NCBI GenBank assembly: GCA_000002445.1
Contig: CM000208.1
Span: 1,760,001-1,824,000, forward strand
Length of the DNA stretch: 64,000 nucleotides
Origin: Trypanosoma brucei
Lineage: Eukaryota
Direction of reading: 5' to 3'
The position numbers and the translations under genes are program-made. Position 1 is the stretch's first letter. Every line of letters starts with the position of its first letter. Under the pieces are notes generated by a model that worked only from the letters and a program-made list of their open reading frames with translations, searched no databases and was not told the DNA's origin. Positions 3,590 through 27,840 of this stretch are shown piece by piece.

Positions 3590-4700
3590 GTGCGTGTGGA
3601 TTGTGGGGATGGGGGCGGGGGAAATTATGAAATAATCGGCAGAGGGCAGGGTCAAATGAGAGGGAAAGAGGAATATATAAATATATATTTATTTATATTT
3701 ATATTTCTACTCGCTTATTTGTGCTTGGATGCCATCAGTGAAAATTATATGCGTCCTCGAACTCACCGGATGTAAGGAAGCGCGCAGGTTTACTCACGTT
3801 ACAGTGAAAATGTGTAACGCAAGAAAAAACAAAAAGGCTTGTGAGCAAAAAAGAGGAGGAAGGAGGAGAAGGTTAAAAAGAGGAGAGATGCAAAAAAAAA
3901 AAAGGTGAAACAGGAGCAAGAAAAGGTACAGATGTTCAAACAGAGGCAACAAAAAGAGAGACACAAAGTCATAAAATATATTTAGTGATCTATTGAAAGT
4001 GATTTGAGATATTTCAAAAAAAAAAATAAGTGACAACGATGGGAACAATTTTTAATATTAAAAAGAAAAGGGGAAAAAACTATTTTTCCCAACGTGGATT
4101 TTTTTTGTTTTTTCTCCCCTTTTCTTTTCCCACGTCTTTATCCTCTATCCCGTTGGCTGCTTTCCTTTTTTTGTTGTTGTTTTTTTTTTACTGTTTGTTT
4201 TTTGTTCCGTCCATTATTGATCGATTACTGAAGTTTTCGTATCATATGAAATATTTGCTTCTGTTTTGTTGTATAAATAAATATAAATTATTTTTCTTTT
4301 AATCTCTCTTTCCTACTCCTCTTTCATTTGACCTCGCTGTTTTGCCGTCATTTGCTTCCGGTTTTGTTTGGGATGTTTTATGTTAAGTTGTGTTGTGTTA
4401 TATTTTCCTCCTCGACATTATGCGAGAGGGAGAAATGACGGAGTGAAAGAAAGGGGGGAAAAAATGAAAAATAAAAATAAAAAAAAGATGGAACGGTACG
4501 GTGCCCCCAATGAAACCGATATGATTAAATGAGTGAACTGAAAGATTTGGTTTGTATTTTGTTGTGTTATGTTGTGTTATGTGGCGATGCCTTCCCCTGT
4601 GGAGGAGCAACAATAAAAGCAGTGCCTTGGGAATAATAAAAAGAAGAGAGAGAGAGAGAAGAGTAATGTGAAGGGCTGCACAAACATAGTTTTTTTTTCC

Positions 4701-4719
4701 CACACACACACACACACAC
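4701..4719. repeat. (CA)n microsatellite
   Basis: Direct read: cacacacacacacacacac, flanked by a poly-T run. Confidence 0.85.
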
Positions 4720-7380
4720 GCACACTTTGGTTTGTTTCGTTTTGTGTTCTTTATTGTGTGCATGAGACTGTCATTAAAAAGAAAAAGAAATAAAAAGAGA
4801 GAAAACATAAAAGAATACGAAATGACGGTGACTTCATACAAGCGTATACGCATGAATATAATAAATATATTTAAATCATGGGTATATGTATTTATATTTA
4901 TATTTGTATGAAGTTGCTAGTGTTCGTGTGCATGTGTTTGGGTGGTGGGGAGAAGCAAGTGACTGAAATGAAAAAAAAAGGAAAGAGGTTATAAAAACAA
5001 TTATGATAATAATAATATACGCGTTGCTTTAGAAATACAGAATGTTTTTTTTTAAAAAAAAATAAATAAAACAGTGGACGGGAAGTGAGATATGTTTTCC
5101 TTTGTTACTATAACAAAACAACAACAACAATAATAATAATAACAATAGCAGTAACGGTAACGATAACGATAATTATAAGAGTAATTTAGAAAGTAAAAGC
5201 AACAAATATTTAATTATTCATTTATGTGGTAGAGAAAGAGAGAGAGAGAGTAAAAGGGGAAAAGGTAGGAATAGGAATAACATTGTTTGTGTTTGTGCTT
5301 TTTTTTCTTTTTTTTCTTTTTTTTCATGTGTGTGTGTTGGGGGGGGGGAACTTCTTTAATTCAACCACTTGTACAACAAAACTTCCAGTAATCGAAGGGT
5401 AAAATCAAATGAGAAGCGGGGGAAAATGTTTTTTTTTGTTTGTTTGTTTGTTTAATGAAAGGAGAAGTATATATGTATATTTATATATACGAATATGTGC
5501 ATCTTTTAAATATTTTAGGTCATCTTCAATATCCTTTCTTCTTTTTTTTTGTGTGTGTGAGAGAGGGAGAGAGAGATTTTTTTTTGTTCGCTTTGTGGCT
5601 CTGACGTGTTCGGCAATCCCATTAGAGAAAAGAAAAAGTTTAGGTATTTTTTTTTATTTAAAAAAAAAAAAGCGTCGTAAGATTTGCGGTCCCCGTATGC
5701 ACATGGCGGTTGCATCTCGTATGTTTTCTCCATTTTTTTTCTTTTTTATTCAGTTATCAACAGTTTCCTTTCTATCTTTTTTTTCTTTTTTTTCTTTATT
5801 ATAATAATTATTGTTCCTTTTCTTTTCATTTTACCTTTTTCTTTTCTGTTTTTGTGTCGTTTATGCTGTTAAAAGAAAAAAAAATGAAAGAAGGGAAAAA
5901 ATAAAAGGAGTGAAGGAGGGACGGACTGGCGGGTGGGAAAAGAAAAGAAAAGAAAAAAACAAAAAAAAGGAAAAGGAAAAAGGAATATATTTTACGATTC
6001 GAAGCAGCCAAAATGAAGTTGTGGTCAGTTAGACGGGGTGAAAGTTTTTTTTTAATTCTTTTCTTTTTCCACTGTTTTTACTCCCTTTCCCCCTTTTCTC
6101 TCCCGTCCTTATCATTATTATTATCATCATCATCCGCTTTGTTTTGTTATATTTTATTCATTTTTCATTTATATCCTTCAGATTCTTCTTTTGGTTGTTG
6201 TAATGACGATGGGTCTGTAGTTGTTTTTTTTTGTTTTTTTTGTCCCAAACTTTAACCAACCTTAAGTTTGAGGATCATTCAAAACGCATCAACTGGTGGA
6301 AAATACGGGGAAAGGGTTAATGGGCGAGAAAAAGAAAAAAATGAAACAACAGCAACAAATAAAAAAAGAGAGAGAGAACAAAAAAAAAAAAAAATATATA
6401 TATATATAAGAGAAACGGAAGGACAAAGTTGATAGTTATGATGTTTTTAAAAAAAAAAGAAAAGTTAACTTTCCTCCGTTTATTTCATATTTACACAAAT
6501 GACCATTATGCACCAGTTATACAGCATCAGAAAGAGAAAAGGGGAAAGGAAATAAATAAGGAAGGGAGGTACTCATGTCTGTTTTATGTTTTGTGCATTT
6601 GTATGTATGACTGTGCGTAGTTGCACACATTTTCTTCCTCCTTTCTTTCTTTTTATTTATTTGTTTGTTTCTTTCTTTCTCATCATTTGAATGGTGGTAA
6701 GAAGGTTATATGGGGGAGGAAAACAAAAAAATATATTTATATCTACATCCATACCTATATTTATTAAATTCCACATGCAGACACATATGTATATATAAAA
6801 ATGAGAGTGTTTAGAGACGGCGCATTTGTCACTGATCTCTCACGCTCTGATTTGAGATATGTTTTGCTTTTCATCTTCTCGCCTCTTCGTCCTTCTTTTC
6901 CTTGTTTTGTCTCTATCTTCTATCTTAATATCATTGTTTTTTTGTTTTTTTTTTAGAAATGAAGCCTTCAAAACAAAACAAAAAGCAATGATTATGTTAT
7001 GTTCTAACTTAGTTTCATTTAGATGAATATACGCGACATGTTCACAACGCATGGAAAAGTTGCTGAAGTAAACAGCATGGAAATCATGTGTATAATCGCG
7101 GAGGCGAAGTTGCGCGGAGGGAACAAGGGAAATGCATTGAATTAATATTATAAAAGCAACAGGAGATGTAAAAATATTTAAAAAAAAAAAGAAACAAAGT
7201 CACCAGTGAAATGGTTCTGATGCATGACGTTAAGGTGGATTTCATCACTCACAGGCTGTGTTAGTTTGTGTTATTTATCTTTAGATTTCAGGAATTATTT
7301 TCACTGAGAAGTCGAGTAAAATGAATGAATGACTTAATGAAAAGAGCTGGACTTCAATTCTCCCTCCAACCCTTAATGTT

Positions 7381-7460
7381 TTCAGTACTATTTCCTTTCG
7401 TTCTCTTCCTGCTGCTGCTATGCCCTTTTTTTTTAATTTTCTTGAACCTTCGTTTTGGAT
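7381..7460 (+). promoter_or_regulatory. Polypyrimidine tract upstream of the desaturase CDS
   Basis: ttcagtactatttcctttcgttctcttcctgctgctgctatgcccttttttttaattttcttgaacc precedes the ATG at 7595 by about 150 nt. Confidence 0.4.
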
Positions 7461-7594
7461 CAATCTATTTAAGCGAAAGACTTTCTCTAAGGTGGGACGC
7501 GTTTCCTATAAAAAGAAATAAAATTAACGAAAATAAAAAGAAGGAGGGTTGCGTGGTCTAAAGGTTCAGAAAAGGGGAAATTAAGGCATAGCAA

Positions 7595-8860
7595 ATGAGT
7601 TCGGTAAAGAGTAAAGGTTCAAGTTGTTCCACAGCTGATGTTGTGCGCATCGATGGAATATATTACGATACGGCAAAACTTGCAGCAATTCATTGCGGTG
7701 GCCCAACGATGGTAAATATGGCAAATGGTACGGATTGCACACGTGTATTCCTCAGCTACCACCGTCGTCGGTTTCCCCACGAAAAATACAAGTCGCTGCA
7801 GGTTTCACCTTCGGATGTGTTGGATGGTGCGGTCACCGATGAACCCGACACTACAAACTTTGATAAATATTTGGACTTGTGCTCACTGATACGTCCCGTC
7901 ATTGCCCCGACTGGAGGCTTTGCACCATGGCATTATTTCATCAAGACGTTATTTTGGTGCAGTCTTGTTTTCTTCTTGGATATTTATGCCATATTTGCCT
8001 TTAGGTCCTTATACCTCACTATCATCCAATCATTAGCCATGGCAATGGTGGGACTTAATGTGCAGCATGATGCCAATCACGGCGCTATTAGCCGCTACCC
8101 GCTCATTAACACAATTTTTGGACTCACTCAAGACATATTGGGTGGAAGCCGCATCAGTTGGATCATTCATCATGATTTCATTCATCACGTGTACACAAAC
8201 GAACCTCATCATGACTTGGATCTGGATATTCCCTTATTGAGACTTCATCGCTTCGTTCCCAAGCGGCTGTGTTATGCATTTCAGCATATTTATTTTCTTC
8301 TTCTAGAGGCCGTGTTTGGGCCTGTTCATGTTATATCCAGCATGAAATTTGTTTGGCAGGGTCCCACTACGAAACAGCGGTTCCTGCAGCGAGAGTGGAC
8401 AATGAGCCGAATTTTGACACTTATTCCACCACTGCGTCTTGCCCTTAACATTCTTCACGCGCCAACGCTCCTCCATGCATTAATCTCGACATTCCTGCAA
8501 TATGCAATTGGCGGAATGTACCTCGCTTTCTTTTTCCTCATTTCCCACAACTTCCATGGAGTGAGGAAAGACGGAACTGAGGTGGGGGAGTGTTTTGTGA
8601 AGGCGCAAGTGGAAACAAGTAGTAGTGTTGGTGGTTGGTGGCTGGCACAGCTTAATGGTGGGCTAAACTACCAAATAGAACATCATTTATTCCCCCGTGT
8701 GCACCATAGTTATTACCACTACCTTGCTCCTATTGTGCGGGATTACTGTACGAAACTCGGTATTTCGTACACACGCTTCGATACCGTGTTGGATAACGTC
8801 GTGAGCACCTCTAAACACCTCGCCCAGTTCGGAAAAGGCATAGAAGACAAACGGTTGTGA
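7595..8860 (+). CDS. Membrane fatty-acid front-end desaturase (delta-4/5/6 family) with degenerate N-terminal cytochrome-b5-like region
   Basis: Three histidine boxes: HDANHG, HHDFIHH and QIEHHLFP. The last is the QxxHH variant typical of front-end desaturases. There are multiple hydrophobic spans. The N-terminus shows IHCGGPTM where cytochrome b5 has HPGG. Confidence 0.85.
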   Translation: MSSVKSKGSSCSTADVVRIDGIYYDTAKLAAIHCGGPTMVNMANGTDCTRVFLSYHRRRFPHEKYKSLQVSPSDVLDGAVTDEPDTTNFDKYLDLCSLIRPVIAPTGGFAPWHYFIKTLFWCSLVFFLDIYAIFAFRSLYLTIIQSLAMAMVGLNVQHDANHGAISRYPLINTIFGLTQDILGGSRISWIIHHDFIHHVYTNEPHHDLDLDIPLLRLHRFVPKRLCYAFQHIYFLLLEAVFGPVHVISSMKFVWQGPTTKQRFLQREWTMSRILTLIPPLRLALNILHAPTLLHALISTFLQYAIGGMYLAFFFLISHNFHGVRKDGTEVGECFVKAQVETSSSVGGWWLAQLNGGLNYQIEHHLFPRVHHSYYHYLAPIVRDYCTKLGISYTRFDTVLDNVVSTSKHLAQFGKGIEDKRL

Positions 8861-17248: not shown

Positions 17249-18754
17249 ATGCCTTACGCCTGCCTCCATGGCGGTTCTCTGTGCTTGTTGATATCGCTGC
17301 TTTCGTGCCTCGGTGCCCAGGCAGTACAAACCCTACACCTTGTGCAGCTTGTCCACCGTCACGGAGCGCGGTCTCCCAAGGTAAAACACAATCAAAGTCA
17401 AATATGCGGTGAGGTGCCGTGTGGGTATCTGAACGCTGCCGGGAAGATGATGCTAGTCAATGCAGGTGAATTTCTTAGGAATCACTACAACAGTAACGCA
17501 TCTGAGCCTTTCTTCCCGGAGGAGAGTTACAACTCCTGTGTGACCTACTCGCGTTCCACAGATGTCCCGCGTACGCTGCAGAGCGCTGGGTGTCTTCTGC
17601 GCGGAATGTTCCCCAATGCGTCGGAATTCTTTCCAGCTATACACACTGCAGATGTGAGTACCGATTGGCTACTGCGTTACGACGTGATACCTCAAGCATA
17701 CGCCTTCAGTCATTTAGATGAGCATTGGTGGAGAAATGTGTGTAACCCAAAGCTGGACACGCTTATCGACACCAACACGTTGTTATCCGTTTCGCGGGAG
17801 GTGTTCAGTGAAGGGTTCTGCGCTGATCCACAAAACCGGTGCCATTGCGCGGCGACGCTGTTCGACATTGGTGTCGCCATGCAGTCCGACGGTCGCATCG
17901 ATAAACACCCACTTTTGAGGGAAAATCTCGGCCGGTTGCGCGATATCAAGTTCTTTGAGGATTCTCACCGATTTGTTTACAACGCCTCTGATCGTACGCA
18001 CGCAAAGATGGGGAGTTTGGGGCAGCACCTTGCTCAGGAAATTTTGAAAAATGCGGAGAATCATATGAATGGACTAACGTCGTACAAACTCTATCACTAC
18101 AGCGCACATGACACAACGATAGCACCACTGGCTGCGACACTCGGGGACAGCACAACCACTGGAATCACGCCACCTTACGGTCAGCTGTATGCTTTTGAAC
18201 TGCTGTACGACCACGAAGTTAAAGGGTATATTATTCGGATAAGGCGCGGTGCGCCAGGTCAGAAACCCGAGGAAGGCTATGCATTTAGTTGGGGAGAGTT
18301 TCAGATGAAATGCATGAACGAAAACCACACTGTTTACACAGCTGAGGACAACAAGTGCCCTTACCACGACTTCCGGCGGTTCGTGAAATCCACCAAACCG
18401 CATGATCCCGCGGGACTTTGTTATCTCAACCGGAGGTACCGCGAGCTTTTCCACTGCCCGGGAAATGTTGGAAAACCACCTAATAAGCAGTGCAAAGTCT
18501 TTCGGCGTGTGTGTCCAGCGTGGTCCTGCGAAGAAGGTTACACGTTGAACAGTGTTACCTTAGAGTGCGTGTGCAGTTCCAGGAAATGTATGGAGAATCG
18601 TGACCTGAGCATCAGCACTGACACACTTGGCAGGAATCTTTTCACCATCTTCATCTTTGTGCTCTTGGCACTTCTCATCCCTATTTTTTCCGTATTCGTG
18701 TGCATCGGTAAAAAATTGCGGGCACGAACCCGCAGAACGAGGGCGAAGGGCTAG
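17249..18754 (+). CDS. Membrane-bound histidine acid phosphatase (type I membrane protein)
   Basis: Signal peptide MPYACLHGGSLCLLISLLSCLGAQA. RHGxRxP signature LVHRHGARSPK, and a distal HD motif (YSAHDTT). Cys-rich juxtamembrane segment. C-terminal transmembrane span LFTIFIFVLLALLIPIFSVFVCI followed by a basic tail. The ORF-track start at 17123 translates a pyrimidine tract, so I moved the start to the ATG at 17249. Confidence 0.85.
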   Translation: MPYACLHGGSLCLLISLLSCLGAQAVQTLHLVQLVHRHGARSPKVKHNQSQICGEVPCGYLNAAGKMMLVNAGEFLRNHYNSNASEPFFPEESYNSCVTYSRSTDVPRTLQSAGCLLRGMFPNASEFFPAIHTADVSTDWLLRYDVIPQAYAFSHLDEHWWRNVCNPKLDTLIDTNTLLSVSREVFSEGFCADPQNRCHCAATLFDIGVAMQSDGRIDKHPLLRENLGRLRDIKFFEDSHRFVYNASDRTHAKMGSLGQHLAQEILKNAENHMNGLTSYKLYHYSAHDTTIAPLAATLGDSTTTGITPPYGQLYAFELLYDHEVKGYIIRIRRGAPGQKPEEGYAFSWGEFQMKCMNENHTVYTAEDNKCPYHDFRRFVKSTKPHDPAGLCYLNRRYRELFHCPGNVGKPPNKQCKVFRRVCPAWSCEEGYTLNSVTLECVCSSRKCMENRDLSISTDTLGRNLFTIFIFVLLALLIPIFSVFVCIGKKLRARTRRTRAKG

Positions 18755-19532
18755 TGCATTGTTGTTTTGTGTTTGTGTGTATGTGTTTCCGTTTGGGGAT
18801 GACGGGGCATTTGTAGACCAGGGAAGCCGCAGTATGATACTGGTATCTGACTGTTCTGATGCATGTGGTTTGTCCGCTGCTTTCCTCCGTTTAGTCCGGC
18901 TCCGTTCGACCTCAAGCTCCTCATGCAAAGAACGTAACTGCCGAATACCGTAGACGCTTAGTTCCTCCGGTGGATGCAGTGTAAAAATCGGACCAACAAC
19001 CAGTGATATAACAAATCCCCACCATCTTCCTCTGGGACTGGCCTGTTGTAAATAAGTTTGTTTGCGTGAATTTTTTTGACCTTGTGCGGTAATCACGTGA
19101 GGCCCTGGGAGAAGGGTGACCCTTCCTCTACACCCTCAGGCCTGAAAGAAAGTGCTCTCCTGAAGGGCAAATTGCTCGCACTAAGCACATAAAACCCTCT
19201 GTTTGCGTTTTCTCACTGTGCATAAAGTGGAAGGGATATGTGTTCAGCGAAGTGATGAGACTTCGCCAATGTTTGGGCGTATGTTTGATATGTGTTGCTC
19301 GGGCCCCTCCCCCCACGGTGCTGGCCGGTCATTTTTTTTTGTTGGCGGACGCCAGCACTGCAGCGGAGAGGTGCCGATGCGCTGTATCTCTTTTGTGCGG
19401 CTTCATGGAAGTTACGACCGAAATAACCGGAAAGGAAACTCCAACTCACCGCCGTCGCGTTGGCCGCAAGACGGTCGTGTCGTGTTTCTCCTAACATTCG
19501 CGTCTCGGTACTATCGGCGGGGCAGCCGGCGC
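18755..19532. other. Convergent strand-switch region between the plus and minus polycistronic clusters
   Basis: All supported CDSs from 250 to 18754 are on the plus strand. All from 19533 to the window end are on the minus strand. No tRNA-like A/B box was found in between. Confidence 0.7.
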
Positions 19533-19817
19533 TCATGCATGTAGCCTCGCAACTCCACGGAGCAGTTGGACTTCCTCGAGTTTTCTGTCAGCCTCCATGA
19601 GTTTCTGCTCGACGAAACCGTGCACAGCCTTTAGTTTTTTTGAGGTATTACATAACGCTTTTATTGCGGACAATTTCAAAGCTGCCCCAGCGTCCGCATG
19701 ATGACAACAACCACTTACTAACGCCACTACTAAAAATGCCACTGTTCTTCGCATTTGCTGAAGAAAACAAAAGATGCCTGGCACCTGCAACCCACTAAGT
19801 TTTCCCTTAAACCACAC
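19533..19817 (-). pseudogene. Truncated paralogue of the N-terminal part of the 20184-20969 protein (signal peptide plus helical region only)
   Basis: ADAGAALKLSAIKALCNTSKKLKAVHGFVEQKLMEADRKLEEVQLLRGVARL aligns with ADSGALSLSGAAEALRNASGKLKSVYAFVQAKTKYATEKVREFEDMVELVRL of the neighbouring ORF (about 40% identity by eye). The ORF terminates after 94 aa. Confidence 0.35.
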
Positions 19818-20183
19818 AAACTAAGAAATACGAATTTAAAACAACCAAAAATAACAACGCGAGGGTCCTCCTGAGAGAGTCAGCCCTGCCAACACCACAT
19901 ATCGCCATCTCCTCCAACAGCTTCTCCTCTTGCACCGTTTCTCTGTTCCCGAGCACGACGAATGACTTCCCACTATCCTCATCTACCACTACTGTGCTTT
20001 TATTTCCGTGGGTGCCCGTGTTCACAATAGCTTGCGCGTATTCCCAGTTCCAGTGTGCGCCGGTTTCGTGCGCCAGCTCTTCGATGTGAGTATACAAGTT
20101 CACAAATTTGCGAAGCTCTCGGTAGGCGTTTCTAAGAACGGGGACGTTGTTAACGGGGTCTTCCTCCCAAGTTACATCGTGTA

Positions 20184-20969
20184 TTAGAACCTCTGCACGG
20201 GTTTTTCCTGTCCCCCCAACGAATCCTCTTCCACTTCGTTTAAGGGAAATAATTCTATCTCCCCAGAGTATTCCTCTGGAGGTGCTGTTTTCGGAGAGGT
20301 AGCCGCCCCCGGACGGGTGTTTGTTAGGTGGCAGTTTGCGCTGTGGACGTAGCGTTCCAAGGGGTTTCCACCGCCACCAGTGAGCCTAAGCAATTCGTTC
20401 ATACTCTCCCGTGTCATGTTCATTTCCTCCACCCTTTCCATGCGGTGCATACCCCCCAAAGAAATAAATTCATCCTTCTCCGAGTCACTTAAATAGCAAT
20501 TCAACAACTGATTCCGCGTCGCGTGGTGCTCGCTATTTCCTACGCAAAAATCCCCTTTCCCACTGGAATACGCGCGCCGCCACACATTTATCATTTCATC
20601 CAACCTCCCCGCCGCTATCCCTGCTGCCCCTACCGCTGAGTATCCAAGATATCTCAACCTCTTCAATTCTCTCCTCTTCACCCTATTCACTTTACTCCCC
20701 ACACGTTTCAAAAACTTCGCGATCCCCGTGCACGAGGTCCAATTGCTATTTCCCCCTTCATTTCCCCTAACCTTCACAATCTTCAACCTCACCAACTCCA
20801 CCATATCCTCAAACTCCCTCACCTTCTCGGTTGCATACTTAGTTTTCGCTTGGACGAAGGCATACACCGATTTCAACTTCCCCGACGCATTACGGAGCGC
20901 TTCCGCAGCTCCACTCAAACTCAGTGCGCCACTGTCCGCAAAAGCAAAATGACAAAGAGAAAAATACAA
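20184..20969 (-). CDS. Hypothetical secreted/surface protein, possibly the 5' part of a frameshifted gene that continues into 19807-20103
   Basis: N-terminal signal-peptide-like MYFSLCHFAFADSGA. The 261-aa ORF is followed, in another frame, by ORF 19807-20103. That ORF ends in a hydrophobic GPI-signal/TM-like tail (LALLFLVVLNSYFLVCVV). The two starts differ by one frame. Confidence 0.5.
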   Translation of the reverse strand: MYFSLCHFAFADSGALSLSGAAEALRNASGKLKSVYAFVQAKTKYATEKVREFEDMVELVRLKIVKVRGNEGGNSNWTSCTGIAKFLKRVGSKVNRVKRRELKRLRYLGYSAVGAAGIAAGRLDEMINVWRRAYSSGKGDFCVGNSEHHATRNQLLNCYLSDSEKDEFISLGGMHRMERVEEMNMTRESMNELLRLTGGGGNPLERYVHSANCHLTNTRPGAATSPKTAPPEEYSGEIELFPLNEVEEDSLGGQEKPVQRF

Positions 20970-23900
20970 CGACTAGCGCATCCACGCGTCGATGAACTTT
21001 ACTCTTGGCGGAAGGGGCGGGGGAAGGGGAAGTGAATAAGTTGTTAGTGGGCCTGTGAAGAAAAAAAATCAGTAATTTGACATGCCTTCTTTCCAGAACC
21101 GGCTGGCTTGTCTTTTCATATGGCGGTGCAACTACCGCGGCAATATTGGTGGGGGAGGGGAGATGCAATGAGATTGTTATTCCACTTTCAAACTTGGTGC
21201 ACAACCCTCGCAAGAAAACCTGGTTCCGCCTTACCAAAGCTGGGCACGGCATGCTCGACACAAAGACTAGTGATAATCGGCACGGGTGTGAATCGGTGCG
21301 GTGAGGTGTTGAGTCCGCTCACTCGCCCACATCGCGCAGTTGAATGCGGCGTGAAATGGCACTTTGATGGGGAAATGGGACTTCCCAACGTCAGAAGCCG
21401 AAATAAGATTATCAGAACAGAAATTATTCCACTCGGGCGTAGCAGTGCACGGGGGATGCAACGCACCCTTATGGATCTTGAAACAGACAACGGTCAACCA
21501 GCAGCGGGCCGCCTCCAACGTATGGATCGGAGTGTGCGTCAACAGAATTTACTTGTGCCATTACGAGCTTAGATCGCCCGCGTAAGGGGGAAATTGTTGG
21601 GAAATTTGCCCACAAATACGTACCCGCGGGCTTCGGAGGGGATCTTATCGCCTCCTAAGAGGTGGGACGTTATGGATGAATCCCTTCGGGAGCCGAATAG
21701 CGTGGCTGTGGCGGTGGAAAACCCACGGTGGAAACGGGCTGCCGCCACATCTCTGGGGACGAGCCTTGCAAGGCGCGTGGGTTACGGGAGATAAAGATTG
21801 CCAAGCCGAAAAGGGCGCACAGAAACAGTGCCATATGGCGGTGGGTGGTGCGGAACCTCGAAACCAAAAGCGGCCGAATCAGCAGGTTAGAATTTGACAC
21901 AGTGCTTACTCCAAGCTCTCTTAAACTTGATTGCAGTACCCGACAAACAACCGTTAGCAGGGAGGCATCAGGGGAATTGCCCTTCAGGGATGAGCAGCGC
22001 GAAGCCCGAAAACATGCCGAAAGATCCAATGATGGAACCACCGGGAACGGGGAATCGTAAGCCGAAGCCCTTGGCCTTGGCCTTAGGGAGGGGGGGGTTA
22101 AAGTTAACGGTAAATGAATTTTGTACAGGAGCCGCGCCCTTGGGAAATATACACTAAGGGGATTTGCAGAAGGTCTGTGGGAAAGGGAGGCTGCGCTTGC
22201 TGGGCTTTGTGACCACCTCACCGAAAGCACTGTCACACAATGAAAAGCGGGAGATGGTCATTATAATGCCAATCTTGGTGTCAAAACATGATGAAACGCC
22301 AATAGCAACCTGCAGTGGCCCTCGGCAGCACCATCCAAGGCGCGTCCCACAGCAATGCCCAGTGCGGCACGCCCATCCACTTCAAATATCACCTATCGCT
22401 AAGAGTGGCGGGATACCGTCACCAAATGTTTCCACCACTCCTAAAATACTGTGTTGCGATTTCGAAGTGGGGCAGCCAAGCAAGCGTTGAAGATATATCG
22501 ATGGAAAAAAGAAAGGGGCGTCGGCGGTTAGGTGATGTCCGCTACCGCAGCGCCCACGGCATCCGAGGGGAAGCGCAGTTGCCACAACCACGGCGCACGA
22601 CTCCGCGTAGTTCAATCCGACCTCTGAACATTCCACTATGTGCCAGGGGCAAGTGGGGGTAAAAAAGATACCAAGGACGACAGAGTAACCTGGATATGCC
22701 TGAATCCCTTCCCTAAACGCGCAAACTGACTGTGCAGTCCTGAAAACAGCAACACCGCACACGCCACGCACGGAGGAACGCAACACCACCCCAGGTTGGT
22801 TGATCAAACAAACAGGAAAGCAACATTCCGGGTGTTCGAAAGGAAAGCGAGAGAGCGACCACCAACTGGCGCCAAGGCTGCCGGAGAACAACAAAATCTC
22901 TCCGGGTTGTTAAAGCAGTTGGGGTGGAAGCAATAGTGAGAGGCGATACCGGAAGTGCTAGGCCCTTAAAGAATCCGGTACTATCCGAACAACAGGTTGC
23001 AGGAAATAACGGAAATTGGTGCACGAATGTGGCTGGCGGAATGGGGAACATATCTGCATGCAGATACGGATGCTGCACACCAAAAATAGATGGCCGAGCA
23101 ACACACCGCCACCAAATACATAGAACGCAAGCATGGCCACAACCTACAAAAGCAGCGCAACTCCCTTAAGTTTGAGTCCGAGGAATTTTCTCTACACCTT
23201 CCCCCGCTCCAACTCCCAAGGGCATTGCATGCAGAATGTGAAGTGGATACCGTCGTAACAGTTGGAATTAGTAGCTCAGGAGGGTTATCAAAGTTGAATA
23301 ATGATCACCCGCGATGATTTTGCAAGCCATTCCGTTGTATTGATCCCACCAAAACTGTCGGTGTGAGCAATGCCGTACCAACGCATTGGTCTATACACTA
23401 TACCTTCACTTTCCAACATATATTAAAAGGGCCAAGAAAAATTAGGCGCAGAGTGGGGGGATTTTTCCCACGACGGAAACTCCAACTGAACCACCATACA
23501 AGCGGTTGCACGAAAAGTGCGACGTGTGAAGCAGAGGCGACGGTTGCAGCACCAGCACGCATGGGCGACGCTGAAGTCTTCGGTTATCACTCGTTTGTGT
23601 TTACCCGTAAAGCGCCAAGCAGATTATAGGGGTTAAGTTTCTATTTCCCGATGTTCCCCCCACTAAACCGCTCACTGGCCCCCAAATTGAAAACTTTCCC
23701 TCCTTAATTACATGTTGCATCTATCGTGTTTTAGGGTTCTCAGCAGGGTCAATGCCGCTTGCGAAAACTACTTCATCAGTCTAAATACGGTACGCTTCAG
23801 AGAAAACACGATGACACAGACAAACTATGGTCTAAAAATATTTAGAAAAAAGGATAAAGAATAAGGGCTTCTGGAATGACGACGGCAGTGGAGCGTTCTC

Positions 23901-24393
23901 CTATTTTCCAACAAACACTCGGCCAAAAGTGAAATTATTCCCGCAATAGTTGAAATTGCTCACGAAGAATCATATGTTTGTAAAAGAAAAAATGTATGTA
24001 TATATATAGATAAATATAATTATTGTTATTCATACGTGCGCACTCGTACATAAATGTACTGCTAATACCTACAACACATCCAAACAGAAATGCAATAATC
24101 CCAACTCGAGTACGAAGCGGAGCAACGCTCACACAACTTCGTCCCCCATACCGTTTGTGGGAACCAGTGGCACGTCACATGTGTTCACTCCCTGTTCTGT
24201 ACATGCAGAACTGTTAAATCTCAATGAGTACATGTTTACCTGATGAAAAGAAAAAACTGGGCTCAAAGACTACGAAAAAAAAATAGGTAAATAAACTCCC
24301 TCCCGATCGATCACAACATAATAAATCTTCGAAAAAAAAAACTTTCCCCCTTACCGGTCCCCTTTCATCCGGTTAAAACAAAAAACTATAGCT

Positions 24394-27300
24394 TTACGGT
24401 TTCGCTTCATCTGAGGATTGAGTTACGGGTACGGCAAAAGATGCATCAGATAAGCATCGTGGCACCTCCTCCATCATAACCTCGTTGTCGCATATGACAA
24501 CCGCGTTCTGGCGTTCCCTTCCCAAAAATAAAACTGCCGACAGCCCCACCGCCAGTAACAAAAACGTGGAACCAACCAAAAGCAGCAATCCCGCACTGAC
24601 GCTCGATCCTTTCCCCTTTGCATTCGAGAACTTGGGGGAATCCTCAGTAGAGCATCCATCACAGAATGCAACAAGCTTTAACGAACACGAAGATTTCAAG
24701 AACATTCCGTCAGTCCCGTCCGCTGCATCGCTTACCTCCGTATCATTGCAGTCACCTGTGATGTCGCAATCATCAGTTTCATTGCAGTCACCTGTGATGT
24801 TGCAATCATCAGTTTCATTGCAGTCACCTGTGATGTCGCAATCATCGGTTTCATTGCAGTCACCTGTGATGTTGCAATCATCGGTTTCATTGCAGTCACC
24901 TGTGATGTTACAATCATCGGTTTCATTGCAGTCACCTGTGATGTCGCAATCATCGGTTTCATTGCAGTCACCTGTGATGTTGCAATCATCGGTTTCATTG
25001 CAGTCACCTGTGATGTTACAATCATCGGTTTCATTGCAGTCACCTGTGATGTCGCAATCATCGGTTTCATTGCAGTCACCTGTGATGTTACAATCATCGG
25101 TTTCATTGCAGTCACCTGTGATGTTGCAATCATCGGTTTCATTGCAGTCACCTGTGATGTTGCAATCATCGGTTTCATTGCAGTCACCTGTGATGTTGCA
25201 ATCATCGGTTTCATTGCAGTCACCTGTGATGTTGCAATCATCGGTTTCATTGCAGTCACCTGTGATGTCGCAATCATCGGTTTCATTGCAGTCACCTGTG
25301 ATGTTGCAATCATCGGTTTCATTGCAGTCACCTGTGATGTCGCAATCATCGGTTTCATTGCAGTCACCTGTGATGTTACAATCATCGGTTTCATTGCAGT
25401 CACCTGTGATGTCGCAATCATCGGTTTCATTGCAGTCACCTGTGATGTCGCAATCATCAGTTTCATTGCAGTCACCTGTGATGTTGCAATCATCGGTTTC
25501 ATTGCAGTCACCTGTGATGTTGCAATCATCGGTTTCATTGCAGTCACCTGTGATGTTACAATCATCGGTTTCATTGCAGTCACCTGTGATGTCGCAATCA
25601 TCGGTTTCATTGCAGTCACCTGTGATGTTGCAATCATCGGTTTCATTGCAGTCACCTGTGATGTCGCAATCATCGGTTTCATTGCAGTCACCTGTGATGT
25701 CGCAATCATCAGTTTCATTGCAGTCACCTGTGATGTTGCAATCATCGGTTTCATTGCAGTCACCTGTGATGTTGCAATCATCGGTTTCATTGCAGTCACC
25801 TGTGATGTTACAATCATCGGTTTCATTGCAGTCACCTGTGATGTTGCAATCATCGGTTTCATTGCAGTCACCTGTGATGTTGCAATCATCGGTTTCATTG
25901 CAGTCACCTGTGATGTTGCAATCATCAGTTTCATTGCAGTCACCTGTGATGTTGCAATCATCAGTTTCATTGCAGTCACCTGTGATGTTGCAATCATCAG
26001 TTTCATTGCAGTCACCTGTGATGTTGCAATCATCAGTTTCATTGCAGTCACCTGTGATGTTGCAATCATCAGTTTCATTGCAGTCACCTGTGATGTTGCA
26101 ATCATCGGTTTCATTGCAGTCACCTGTGATGTTGCAATCATCGGTTTCATTGCAGTCACCTGTGATGTTGCAATCATCAGTTTCATTGCAGTCACCTGTG
26201 ATGTCGCAATCATCAGTTTCATTGCAGTCACCTGTGATGTCGCAATCATCGGTTTCATTGCAGTCACCTGTGATGTTGCAATCATCAGTTTCATTGCAGT
26301 CACCTGTGATGTCGCAATCATCGGTTTCATTGCAGTCACCTGTGATGTTGCAATCATCGGTTTCATTGCAGTCACCTGTGATGTTGCAATCATCAGTTTC
26401 ATTGCAGTCACCTGTGATGTCGCAATCATCGGTTTCATTGCAGTCACCTGTGATGTTACAATCATCGGTTTCATTGCAGTCACCTGTGATGTCGCAATCA
26501 TCGGTTTCATTGCAGTCACCTGTGATGTCGCAATCATCGGTTTCATTGCAGTCACCTGTGATGTTGCAATCATCGGTTTCATTGCAGTCACCTGTGATGT
26601 TGCAATCATCGGTTTCATTGCAGTCACCTGTGATGTTGCAATCATCAGTTTCATTGCAGTCACCTGTGATGTTGCAATCATCAGTTTCATTGCAGTCACC
26701 TGTGATGTCGCAATCATCGGTTTCATTGCAGTCACCTGTGATGTTGCAATCATCGGTTTCATTGCAGTCACCTGTGATGTTGCAATCATCAGTTTCATTG
26801 CAGTCACCTGTGATGTCGCAATCATCGGTTTCATTGCAGTCACCTGTGATGTTGCAATCATCGGTTTCATTGCAGTCACCTGTGATGTCGCAATCATCAG
26901 TTTCATTGCAGTCACCTGTGATGTTGCAATCATCAGTTTCATTGCAGTCACCTGTGATGTTGCAATCATCAGTTTCATTGCAGTCACCTGTGATGTCGCA
27001 ATCATCAGTTTCATTGCAGTCACCTGTGATGTCGCAATCATCGGTTTCATTGCAGTCACCTGTGATGTTGCAATCATCAGTTTCATTGCAGTCACCTGTG
27101 ATGTCGCAATCATCGGTTTCATTGCAGTCACCTGTGATGTCGCAATCATCGGTTTCATTGCAGTCACCTGTGATGTTACAATCATCGGTTTCATTGCAGT
27201 CACCTGTGATGTCGCAATCATCGGTTTCATTGCAGTCACCTGTGATGTTGCAATCATCAGTTTCATTGCAGTCACCTGTGATGTCGCAATCATCGGTTTC

Positions 27301-27840
27301 ATTGCAGTCACCTGTGATGTTGCAATCATCAGTTTCATTGCAGTCACCTGTGATGTCGCAATCATCGGTTTCATTGCAGTCACCTGTGATGTTGCAATCA
27401 TCAGTTTCATTGCAGTCACCTGTGATGTCGCAATCATCGGTTTCATTGCAGTCACCTGTGATGTTACAATCATCGGTTTCATTGCAGTCACCTGTGATGT
27501 CGCAATCATCGGTTTCATTGCAGTCACCTGTGATGTTGCAATCATCGGTTTCATTGCAGTCACCTGTGATGTTGCAATCATCGGTTTCATTGCAGTCACC
27601 TGTGATGTTACAATCATCAGTTTCATTGCAGTCACCTGTGATGTTACAATCATCGGCGTAACCCGTAGCGTTCTTGTAGTCGAAGAAGAAATCATCATGT
27701 ACGGCATCAGCAGGGGGTGTGGCTACCTCAGCATTTGATTCTTCAAAGATTGGACCTGCCTCGTTAGCCATGCCAGGCACACACGCGGTGCTGGTGAATA
27801 AGACGGTCATAAACAAAGGAATGTAGTATTTGGCGGACAT
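24394..27840 (-). CDS. CRAM: Cysteine-rich acidic integral membrane repeat protein (CRAM-like), type I membrane protein
   Basis: Signal peptide MSAKYYIPLFMTVLFTSTACVPG. About 81 tandem copies of the 12-aa unit DDC(N/D)ITGDCNET. C-terminal transmembrane span GLLLLVGSTFLLLAVGLSAVLFLG plus a roughly 40-aa cytoplasmic tail. This matches the published description of T. brucei CRAM: a 12-aa repeat encoded by a 36-bp unit, flagellar-pocket location. Confidence 0.9.
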   Translation of the reverse strand: MSAKYYIPLFMTVLFTSTACVPGMANEAGPIFEESNAEVATPPADAVHDDFFFDYKNATGYADDCNITGDCNETDDCNITGDCNETDDCNITGDCNETDDCNITGDCNETDDCDITGDCNETDDCNITGDCNETDDCDITGDCNETDDCNITGDCNETDDCDITGDCNETDDCNITGDCNETDDCDITGDCNETDDCNITGDCNETDDCDITGDCNETDDCNITGDCNETDDCDITGDCNETDDCDITGDCNETDDCNITGDCNETDDCDITGDCNETDDCDITGDCNETDDCNITGDCNETDDCNITGDCNETDDCDITGDCNETDDCNITGDCNETDDCDITGDCNETDDCNITGDCNETDDCNITGDCNETDDCDITGDCNETDDCNITGDCNETDDCNITGDCNETDDCNITGDCNETDDCNITGDCNETDDCDITGDCNETDDCDITGDCNETDDCNITGDCNETDDCDITGDCNETDDCNITGDCNETDDCNITGDCNETDDCDITGDCNETDDCNITGDCNETDDCDITGDCNETDDCDITGDCNETDDCNITGDCNETDDCNITGDCNETDDCNITGDCNETDDCNITGDCNETDDCNITGDCNETDDCNITGDCNETDDCNITGDCNETDDCNITGDCNETDDCNITGDCNETDDCNITGDCNETDDCNITGDCNETDDCNITGDCNETDDCNITGDCNETDDCDITGDCNETDDCDITGDCNETDDCNITGDCNETDDCDITGDCNETDDCNITGDCNETDDCNITGDCNETDDCNITGDCNETDDCDITGDCNETDDCDITGDCNETDDCNITGDCNETDDCDITGDCNETDDCNITGDCNETDDCDITGDCNETDDCNITGDCNETDDCNITGDCNETDDCNITGDCNETDDCNITGDCNETDDCNITGDCNETDDCDITGDCNETDDCNITGDCNETDDCNITGDCNETDDCDITGDCNETDDCNITGDCNETDDCNITGDCNETDDCDITGDCNETDDCNITGDCNETDDCDITGDCNDTEVSDAADGTDGMFLKSSCSLKLVAFCDGCSTEDSPKFSNAKGKGSSVSAGLLLLVGSTFLLLAVGLSAVLFLGRERQNAVVICDNEVMMEEVPRCLSDASFAVPVTQSSDEAKP
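24732..27650. repeat. 36-bp tandem repeat array (about 81 units) inside the CRAM-like CDS
   Basis: Plus-strand unit: tcattgcagtcacctgtgatgt[t/c]gcaatcatc[g/a]gtt. Three polymorphic positions per unit: AAC/GAC (N/D), ACC/ACT (synonymous Thr) and TGC/TGT (synonymous Cys). Confidence 0.95.

What the first reader, a model, noticed from the sequence alone, without database searches (positions are those of the whole stretch)
19533..20969. Two paralogous secreted/GPI-type protein gene copies, one truncated and one apparently frameshifted, at the convergent strand-switch
The first minus-strand ORFs after the strand switch are 19533-19817 and 20184-20969. They share a signal peptide plus a roughly 50-residue helical N-terminal block (AD.GA..LS......L.N.S.KLK.V..FV..K...A..K..E......L.R.L). 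The larger copy is followed, in a different reading frame, by ORF 19807-20103. That ORF ends in a hydrophobic GPI-signal-like tail (LALLFLVVLNSYFLVCVV). A one-base frame change would fuse them into a roughly 360-aa surface protein with a signal peptide and GPI-type tail. The smaller copy stops after 94 aa. This looks like a small duplicated surface-protein family decaying, or undergoing frameshift variation, at a transcription-termination zone. I did not recognise the family. The helical N-terminus with the ALC motif is loosely VSG/ESAG-like.
Basis: partly seen in the sequence, partly recalled or inferred. Interest (0 to 1): 0.55.

Follow-up and report, generated by a model that had tools for sequence, protein, structure and literature searches.

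The report
Decayed PAG1–PAG5 copy at strand switch
The two ORFs are one 1.4-kb copy of the junction between two procyclin-associated genes (PAG1 and PAG5) of Trypanosoma brucei, sitting broken at the end of a transcription unit; this kind of element is already annotated and described, so the finding is real but ordinary.

Summary
The window is Trypanosoma brucei brucei TREU927 chromosome 10 (exact protein matches). Window 20939→19559 on the minus strand is a single 1,381-bp block. It is 98.4% identical to the segment "PAG1 codon 39 to stop, 81-nt spacer, PAG5 codons 1-65" of the EP/PAG1 procyclin locus, and both boundaries are sharp.

The PAG1-like part carries three disabling lesions relative to its intact 381-aa orthologue in T. 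b. gambiense DAL972:
- CAG→TAG at codon 3 (20975-20973).
- A G6→G5 deletion at 20310-20306. This is the frameshift, and it is not at 20100-20190.
- A 1-bp insertion at 19846/19845, which creates the long hydrophobic "GPI-like" tail by read-through.

It has also lost a family-invariant Cys and the final Gly of the WGDG motif. In T. b. equiperdum the same gene is split by a 5.25-kb ingi retrotransposon. The small ORF is a PAG5 stub cut off by the end of the duplication.

PAG proteins are relatives of ESAG6/7 (the transferrin receptor) and of a-type VSG. The locus is already annotated (EAN78123.1, "PAG1 protein, putative"). PAG-like sequences at strand-switch regions were described by Haenni et al. 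2009.

Verdict: a real pseudogene of a known family. Low novelty.

The parts
19559..20939 (-). Single dispersed segmental duplicate of the EP/PAG1 procyclin-locus segment: PAG1 codon 39 to stop, 81-nt spacer, PAG5 codons 1-65.
   Evidence: blastn of L022 859-2239 against window 20939-19559 gives 98.4% identity over 1,382 columns with 2 gaps. Similarity ends abruptly at both ends.
19836..20981 (-). PAG1-like pseudogene. Ancestral CDS of 381 codons, from ATG 20981-20979 to the ancestral stop TAA 19838-19836.
   Evidence: 96% aa identity to the intact T. b. gambiense orthologue CBH15785.1 and 94% to TREU927 PAG1. The reference annotation EAN78123.1 (206 aa) is the internal-ATG part of this gene.
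20973..20975 (-). Lesion 1: nonsense codon TAG at codon 3. It is CAG (Gln) in T. b. gambiense and T. b. equiperdum.
20306..20310 (-). Lesion 2: G5 run where the orthologues and PAG1 have G6. This -1 frameshift separates ORF 20184-20969 from ORF 19807-20103.
   Evidence: Protein: TRPG|GGYLSENSTS in PAG1 against TRPGAATSPKT in frame A.
19845..19846 (-). Lesion 3: GG where the orthologues and PAG1 have A (1-bp insertion plus substitution), four codons before the ancestral stop. It causes read-through to TAA 19809-19807 and creates the tail VVLNSYFLVCVV.
19533..19754 (-). PAG5-derived stub ORF of 73 codons. Codons 1-65 are PAG5 sequence (signal peptide plus first helix). Codons 66-73 and the stop lie in unrelated flanking DNA.
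   Evidence: 96% identity to aa 1-71 of P0003 (EAN78416.1, 370 aa, the gene numbered next to PAG1 EAN78417.1). DNA homology ends at 19559; no PAG homology further downstream. Pfam PF00913 at 25.1 bits (cut-off 22.1).
20940..20981 (-). Locus-specific 5' end (MR[Q/*]SLYFSLCHFAFA) that replaces the PAG1 signal peptide. It is not derived from PAG1.
   Evidence: no similarity to PAG1 or PAG2 upstream of codon 39. It is conserved in the DAL972 and equiperdum orthologues.
18755..19532 (.). Convergent strand-switch spacer between MBAP2 (plus strand) and the PAG5 stub (minus strand).
   Evidence: No tRNA genes or Rfam families here or anywhere in the window.

Best explanation
A 1.38-kb piece of the procyclin EP/PAG1 locus was copied to the 3' end of the RNA polymerase II transcription unit that contains CRAM. 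The piece runs from PAG1 codon 39, through the PAG1-PAG5 spacer, to PAG5 codon 65. [quoted passage not shown] This happened before the T. brucei subspecies split.

The PAG1 part picked up a new ATG and a short hydrophobic leader from the flanking DNA. It is still an intact 381-aa ORF in T. b. gambiense. The PAG5 part was a truncated stub from the start.

In strain TREU927 (this window) the PAG1-like gene is a dead pseudogene. It has a stop at codon 3, a -1 frameshift, a +1 frameshift at the C-terminus, and loss of a family-invariant Cys and of the WGDG motif. In T. b. equiperdum the same gene was destroyed independently by an ingi retrotransposon.

Shown: the homology, the boundaries, the lesions and the orthologue states. 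Inferred: no functional protein is made here, and the segment drifts neutrally apart from occasional gene conversion with PAG1. It belongs to the published class of 'PAG-like sequences at strand-switch regions'. Any role in damping transcription at the unit's end is possible but unproven.
For: - Genome identity: exact matches to TREU927 proteins EAN78120, EAN78121 and EAN78127.
- Family: PAG1 at E=8.6e-214.
- One contiguous block, 98.4% identical to PAG1-PAG5 DNA, with sharp ends.
- Two-frame match to PAG1.
- Intact 381-aa orthologue in DAL972 at the syntenic site.
- The three lesions located base by base.
- Invariant Cys changed to Arg and WGDG changed to WGDR, in this copy only among 8 family members.
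- An ingi of 5,253 bp with the 12-bp target-site duplication TTTATTTCTTTG interrupts the orthologue in GCA_003543875.1.
- TREU927 versus DAL972 identity: the PAG1-like gene (19836-20981) is 98.2% identical, against 98.5-98.7% for flanking non-coding DNA and 99.4% for the MBAP2 CDS.
- The reference annotation EAN78123.1 reproduces the frameshifted tail exactly, so the lesions are part of the finished reference sequence.
- Literature: PAG-like sequences cluster at strand-switch regions, and all annotated ones lie at convergent ones (PMC2731899).
Against: - dN/dS among the three orthologues is about 0.5 (8 synonymous, 13 non-synonymous differences). This is too few changes to tell relaxed from weak constraint.
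- The DAL972 ORF is intact, so the gene may still function in some lineages.
- I could not inspect reads, so the lesions rest on the quality of the reference assembly.
- No expression data were examined.
Confidence: 0.88

Rival explanations
1. The PAG-derived DNA is kept at this convergent strand switch because it acts in cis as a transcription attenuator or barrier. It would stop polymerase running from the CRAM unit into the opposing MBAP2 unit, or the reverse, and would do so whether or not it can encode a protein.
For: - Haenni et al. [quoted passage not shown] - This copy retains 98.4% identity to nearly the whole PAG1 ORF.
- The block is present at the same site in three subspecies although its ORF is broken in two of them.
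Against: - The block is no better conserved than flanking non-coding DNA.
- A 5.25-kb ingi insertion in its middle is tolerated in T. b. equiperdum.
- An effect on Pol II was never tested, and most strand-switch regions lack PAG sequences.
- End-of-unit locations may simply be places where insertions are tolerated.
Confidence: 0.15
2. The lesions are sequencing or assembly errors, and TREU927 really has an intact 381-aa PAG1-like gene encoding a secreted, transferrin-receptor-like protein.
For: Two of the three lesions are 1-bp length changes at homopolymer runs. The orthologue in DAL972 is intact.
Against: - The nonsense change is a substitution, not a homopolymer error.
- This copy alone carries about 8 further non-synonymous changes, including loss of an invariant Cys and of the WGDG Gly.
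- The deposited TREU927 annotation was built on the same frameshifted sequence.
- From general knowledge, not tested here: TREU927 chromosome 10 is a finished Sanger reference.
Confidence: 0.04
3. The short ORFs are themselves functional products. The 73-aa PAG5 stub would be a small secreted peptide, or the annotated 206-aa internal-ATG product would be a truncated PAG.
For: The 73-codon ORF keeps a signal-peptide-like N-terminus, has a pyrimidine tract and AG just upstream of its ATG, and is open with the same stop in three subspecies.
Against: - At about 1% divergence, a 222-nt ORF staying open is expected by chance.
- Its last 8 codons are fortuitous flanking sequence.
- The only relatives found were PAG-family proteins: PAG5 and a T. 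congolense PAG-like protein. The word-based search found nothing.
- The 206-aa product lacks a signal peptide and the first helix of the fold, and ends in 41 out-of-frame residues.
Confidence: 0.03

Closest known systems
PAG1 (procyclin-associated gene 1; Q01889 / EAN78417.1) of the T. brucei EP/PAG1 procyclin locus
   Same: 94% aa identity over PAG1 residues 30-404. 98.4% nucleotide identity over the block, which starts at PAG1 codon 39. Same family motifs (AGIAAGRLDEM, GGGYL, WGDG, WEEDP) and the same C-terminus in the ancestral state.
   Different: It is not next to procyclin genes or a Pol I promoter. It lies at the end of a presumed Pol II unit downstream of CRAM. It lacks the PAG1 5'UTR and signal peptide, having a different 15-residue leader. 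It is inactivated in this strain by one nonsense and two frameshift lesions.
PAG5 (EAN78416.1, 370 aa; identified as PAG5 by its position next to PAG1, which is an inference)
   Same: The small ORF is 96% identical to residues 1-71. It lies the same 81 nt downstream of the PAG1-type stop as in the EP/PAG1 locus.
   Different: Only codons 1-65 are present. The remaining 305 codons or so were never part of this copy.
'PAG-like sequences' at strand-switch regions (Haenni, Studer, Schumann Burkard & Roditi 2009, NAR; PMC2731899)
   Same: [quoted passage not shown] The PAG1 ORF query they used (positions 1240-1920) is contained in this copy.
   Different: I could not read their Supplementary Table S1 or Figure S3. 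That this exact locus is on their list is therefore inferred, not verified. A terminator or silencer function has been shown only for PAG1 in the procyclin locus and only for Pol I.
ESAG6/ESAG7 transferrin receptor and the a-type VSG N-terminal domain (Pfam PF00913)
   Same: Detectable sequence homology: ESAG7 at E=8e-8 and ESAG6 at E=1e-5 in PDB entry 6soy. The PAG5 stub passes the PF00913 gathering score. ESAG6/7 and the T. congolense TfR-like genes are typically arranged in tandem pairs (PMC3605285). The PAG1-then-PAG5 tandem order here loosely resembles that.
   Different: No evidence of transferrin binding for any PAG. This copy cannot make the protein. It is not in a telomeric expression site.

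Membership tests
PAG family (Fam14, TfR-like; Jackson 2013) | Significant full-length sequence homology to PAG1/2/4/5 | tested here: met
   PAG1, E=8.6e-214; two-frame tblastn at 94% identity; family alignment; the small ORF against PAG5 and a T. congolense PAG-like protein.
PAG family (Fam14, TfR-like; Jackson 2013) | Intact ORF with a signal peptide and the conserved Cys and WGDG positions | tested here: not met
   Stop at codon 3, two frameshifts, Cys changed to Arg, WGDG changed to WGDR. It is a pseudogene member. The DAL972 orthologue meets this feature.
PAG family (name-giving feature) | Located downstream of procyclin genes in a Pol I unit | tested here: not met
   No EP or GPEET repeats in the window. 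The upstream neighbour is CRAM. DNA similarity to the procyclin locus is limited to the 1.38-kb block.
PAG-like sequences at strand-switch regions (Haenni 2009) | PAG1-ORF-related DNA at a strand-switch region or a change of polymerase type | tested here: met
   Plus-strand genes run to 18754 and minus-strand genes start from 19533. The block at 19559-20939 directly borders the switch.
PAG-like sequences at strand-switch regions (Haenni 2009) | Reduces transcription elongation or is enriched for H3.V | not testable with these tools
   Needs nuclear run-on, ChIP or deletion experiments. Only the literature on PAG1 itself is available.
a-type VSG N-terminal domain (Pfam PF00913 Trypan_glycop) | Passes the Pfam gathering threshold | tested here: inconclusive
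   The small ORF scores 25.1 bits against a cut-off of 22.1 (met). The repaired 391-aa conceptual fusion gave no Pfam hit at E<=0.01. PAG1, PAG2 and the DAL972 orthologue carry precomputed PF00913 hits, some of them weak.
GPI-anchored surface protein | C-terminal GPI addition signal: omega site, spacer and a hydrophobic stretch of at least about 10-15 residues | not testable with these tools
No GPI predictor was available. The ancestral tail is ...DSLRRTLALLFLLF, with only about 8 hydrophobic residues.
ESAG6/7 heterodimeric transferrin receptor | Sequence homology to ESAG6/7 | tested here: met
   ESAG7 E=8e-8 and ESAG6 E=1e-5, aligned over the N-terminal domain.
ESAG6/7 heterodimeric transferrin receptor | Expression-site location, pairing of GPI+ and GPI- subunits, transferrin binding | not tested
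   The locus is chromosome-internal. Binding cannot be tested, and the second partner here is a 65-codon stub.

The most novel reading that the evidence does not exclude
PAG1-ORF DNA is maintained at certain convergent strand-switch regions as a coding-independent cis element that attenuates RNA polymerase II or insulates the two opposing units. Gene conversion with the procyclin locus keeps it PAG1-like. This would explain why the block sits at the same site in three subspecies although its reading frame is destroyed in two of them.
Probability: 0.12. Interest if true: 0.45.

Novelty: already known. Interest (0 to 1): 0.12.

Why it matters
It matters little beyond annotation.

- The TREU927 model EAN78123.1 (206 aa, 'PAG1 protein, putative') is the internal fragment of a pseudogene and should be flagged as such. 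The neighbouring 73-codon ORF is a PAG5 stub.
- The locus gives a clean three-state example of one gene: intact in T. b. gambiense, point-mutated in TREU927, and ingi-disrupted in T. b. equiperdum. This shows that this PAG copy is dispensable, which fits the published finding that PAG genes are not needed for tsetse transmission.
- If PAG-derived DNA proved to act as a Pol II terminator at strand switches, this locus would be a convenient natural test case, because coding and DNA-level functions are already uncoupled.

Tried and rejected
- A word-based homology search with the 73-aa ORF found nothing. The full HMMER scan was needed to find PAG5.
- A PDB search with the 73-aa ORF gave only chance hits.
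- Exact-protein look-ups failed for TREU927 PAG1, PAG5, the 846-aa TPR protein and the 73-aa ORF. TREU927 DNA appears not to be in that index. PAG1-PAG5 DNA was finally obtained through the Q01889 allele in Logan assemblies.
- Sensitive tblastn looked for further PAG remnants downstream of the stub (18700-19540) and upstream (20970-24400). It found nothing significant.
- tRNA and Rfam scans of the whole window found nothing, so there is no Pol III gene at this switch.
- The supplement of Haenni 2009 that lists PAG-like loci is not held. Searches for the likely TriTrypDB or GeneDB identifiers gave nothing useful.
- dN/dS among the orthologues is inconclusive because there are only 21 differences.
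- Programmed frameshifting or phase variation was rejected. The G-run change comes with a nonsense codon, a second indel and damaging substitutions.
- No structure was predicted. The sequence evidence settles the family, and the protein is not made here.

Full report
**Where the window comes from.** The window carries the CRAM repeat protein (Pfam CRAM_rpt; an 81 x 36-nt array). It also carries a histidine acid phosphatase, an alternative oxidase, a fatty-acid desaturase and inositol-1-phosphate synthase. Exact-sequence look-ups place three of its proteins in T. brucei brucei TREU927 chromosome 10: MBAP2 (EAN78121.1), EAN78120.1 and EAN78127.1. The last of these matches only in TREU927. Plus-strand genes run up to 18754. 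Minus-strand genes begin at 19533 and continue to the end of the window. [quoted passage not shown]

**Checking the observation.** The three ORFs exist.
- The two N-termini align at 40% identity over 57 residues, E=1e-8. That part of the observation reproduces.
- ORFs 20184-20969 and 19807-20103 are two frames of one gene. TREU927 PAG1 residues 30-251 match frame -3 and residues 245-404 match frame -2, both at 94% identity.
- The frames overlap at about 20301-20325.
- ORF listing used the bacterial code, so the 261-aa ORF 'starts' at a TTG. Reading the DNA shows the real start ATG at 20981-20979, followed by CGC and then TAG.

**Family.** The conceptual repaired protein hits PAG1 of TREU927 (E=8.6e-214) and a T. 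b. gambiense PAG. In the PDB it hits ESAG7 and ESAG6 of the trypanosome transferrin receptor (6soy; E=8e-8 and 1e-5). The small ORF passes the Pfam gathering score for the a-type VSG domain PF00913 (25.1 against 22.1 bits). This matches the literature. PAG1 was described as related to ESAG6/7 (Koenig-Martin 1992, cited). PAG1/2/4/5 form Fam14, the sister group of ESAG6/7 Fam15, and both derive from a-type VSG-like genes (Jackson 2013, PMC3605285). The family is well known.

**Orthologues and the lesions.** Look-ups through conserved neighbouring genes retrieved the syntenic region from two other genomes: T. b. gambiense DAL972 and T. b. equiperdum GCA_003543875.1.
- In DAL972 the orthologue is an intact 381-aa ORF (CBH15785.1, 'PAG1 polypeptide, putative').
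- Base-by-base alignment shows three disabling differences in the window:
  - CAG→TAG at codon 3 (20975-20973).
  - G6→G5 at 20310-20306, which is the -1 frameshift.
  - GG in place of A at 19846/19845, four codons before the ancestral stop (TAA 19838-19836). The reading frame then runs on to TAA 19809-19807.
- The third lesion produces 'VVLNSYFLVCVV'. The ancestral end is ...DSLRRTLALLFLLF.
- In a family alignment the window copy alone replaces the invariant Cys of ALCNAS with Arg and changes WGDG to WGDR.
- In T. b. equiperdum codon 3 and the G run are intact. There the ORF is split at window position about 20457-20470 by a 5,253-bp element. The element has the ingi/RIME 5' end, reverse-transcriptase, endonuclease and RNase H ORFs, a poly(A) tail and a 12-bp target-site duplication TTTATTTCTTTG.
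- One gene thus shows three states in three lineages, two of them independent inactivations.
- The deposited TREU927 protein EAN78123.1 (206 aa) equals the window ORF from the internal Met (MVELV...) to the frame-A stop, out-of-frame tail included. The lesions are therefore part of the reference sequence, and the locus is already annotated as PAG1-like.

**The small ORF.**
- A full HMMER scan of 1.84 billion representatives found just two relatives. One is a 370-aa TREU927 protein, 96% identical over residues 1-71 (EAN78416.1). The other is a T. congolense 'transferrin receptor-like, PAG-like' protein.
- EAN78416.1 is numbered next to PAG1 (EAN78417.1). It is none of PAG1, PAG2 or PAG4. The published locus order is EP1/EP2/PAG1/PAG5/PAG2*/PAG4 (PMC4288722). 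From this I infer that it is PAG5.
- DNA of a PAG1-PAG5 junction, from Logan assemblies carrying the Q01889 PAG1 allele, settles the anatomy.
- Window 20939→19559 aligns as one block to L022 859-2239 at 98.4% identity with 2 gaps. Similarity stops sharply on both sides, at PAG1 codon 39 and at PAG5 codon 65.
- The 81-nt PAG1-PAG5 spacer is included in the block.
- The last eight codons and the stop of the 73-codon ORF are unrelated flanking sequence. No PAG homology follows.
- The 'two paralogous copies' are therefore not duplicates of each other. They were copied together from the procyclin locus. The stub was truncated by the end of the duplicated segment, not by later decay.
- The same stub with the same stop is present in DAL972 and equiperdum. 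The duplication therefore predates the subspecies split.

**Selection.**
- Between TREU927 and DAL972 the PAG1-like gene is 98.2% identical. The flanking non-coding DNA is 98.5-98.7% identical and the MBAP2 CDS 99.4%. There is no sign of constraint on the block at either the protein or the DNA level.
- dN/dS among orthologues is about 0.5, but it rests on only 21 differences, so it is inconclusive.
- Most of the differences are unique to the TREU927 copy. A few (GNSNW, LYTHIEEL) are shared with TREU927's own PAG1 and not with the orthologues. This hints at gene conversion between the paralogues.
- Paralogue identity (98.4%) is about the same as orthologue identity, which is consistent with that hint.

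**Mechanism.** The best-supported account has these steps.
- A dispersed segmental duplicate of the PAG1-PAG5 junction landed at the 3' end of the CRAM transcription unit.
- It briefly, or in some lineages still, formed a new PAG1-like gene with a substitute leader (MRQSLYFSLCHFAFA).
- It is now decaying neutrally in TREU927.
- It belongs to a class already described. Haenni et al. 2009 found six annotated PAG-like genes, all at convergent strand switches, and about 30 unannotated PAG-like sequences almost exclusively at strand switches or at changes of polymerase type. They also showed that the PAG1 ORF in either orientation lowers Pol I-driven expression of a downstream gene 4- to 7-fold.
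- Whether such sequences act on Pol II is untested.
- The lack of extra conservation and the tolerated ingi insertion argue that no strong cis function is needed here. I give that reading about 0.12-0.15.
- Sequencing error (about 0.04) and functional micro-ORFs (about 0.03) are unlikely, for the reasons listed under the rival explanations.

**Verdict.** The 'decaying VSG/ESAG-like surface family at a termination zone' reading is right in spirit. The element is a known, annotated PAG pseudogene of a published class. Novelty is low, and interest is low except as an annotation fix and a possible natural test case for the PAG-as-terminator idea.

Noticed in passing
window 24394-27840 (array 24743-27656): The CRAM gene has 81 copies of a 36-nt repeat, giving a 1148-aa product. 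The orthologous product is 734 aa in T. b. gambiense DAL972 (L014) and 500 aa in T. b. equiperdum (L013). This is either repeat-number polymorphism or assembly collapse. The long ORFs in other frames or on the other strand inside the array (24485-27661 plus strand, 24732-27707 minus strand) are repeat artefacts.
   Followed up: partly
L013 16442 onward and L003 17650 onward (GCA_003543875.1, record coordinates about 1818479-1823732): A full-length ingi retrotransposon of 5,253 bp is inserted in the PAG1-like ORF of T. b. equiperdum, in the same orientation as the gene, with the 12-bp target-site duplication TTTATTTCTTTG. It is absent from TREU927 and DAL972.
   Followed up: yes
window 19590 and about 27600; L001/L005/L012 and L015: The T. 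equiperdum OVI assembly (GCA_001457755.2) breaks on both sides of this locus. One contig ends inside the PAG5 stub. The other ends about 765 nt past the D-Tyr-tRNA deacylase gene. This is probably because the PAG paralogues and the CRAM repeats could not be assembled.
   Followed up: no
window 4000-8000: An AT-rich stretch (GC 0.31-0.35) with strong GC skew and many poly-T and poly-A tracts lies between the alternative oxidase and the fatty-acid desaturase genes. DAL972 aligns here in two overlapping blocks at only 93-96% identity, which suggests an indel or duplication difference.
   Followed up: no
window 20940-20981: The duplicated PAG1 fragment lacks its own signal peptide. In DAL972 and equiperdum it has an in-frame ATG plus a 15-residue hydrophobic leader drawn from the flanking DNA. 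This is a possible case of a new signal peptide recruited after a partial gene duplication.
   Followed up: partly
PMC2837033, Table 2 (other loci on chromosomes 10 and 11): Other PAG-like clusters at convergent strand switches (Tb10.70.1300/1310 and Tb11.01.6210/6220) are reported as 14- to 122-fold up-regulated in bloodstream forms. Some PAG-like copies at strand switches are therefore expressed and stage-regulated. I did not check whether the copy in this window is.
   Followed up: no
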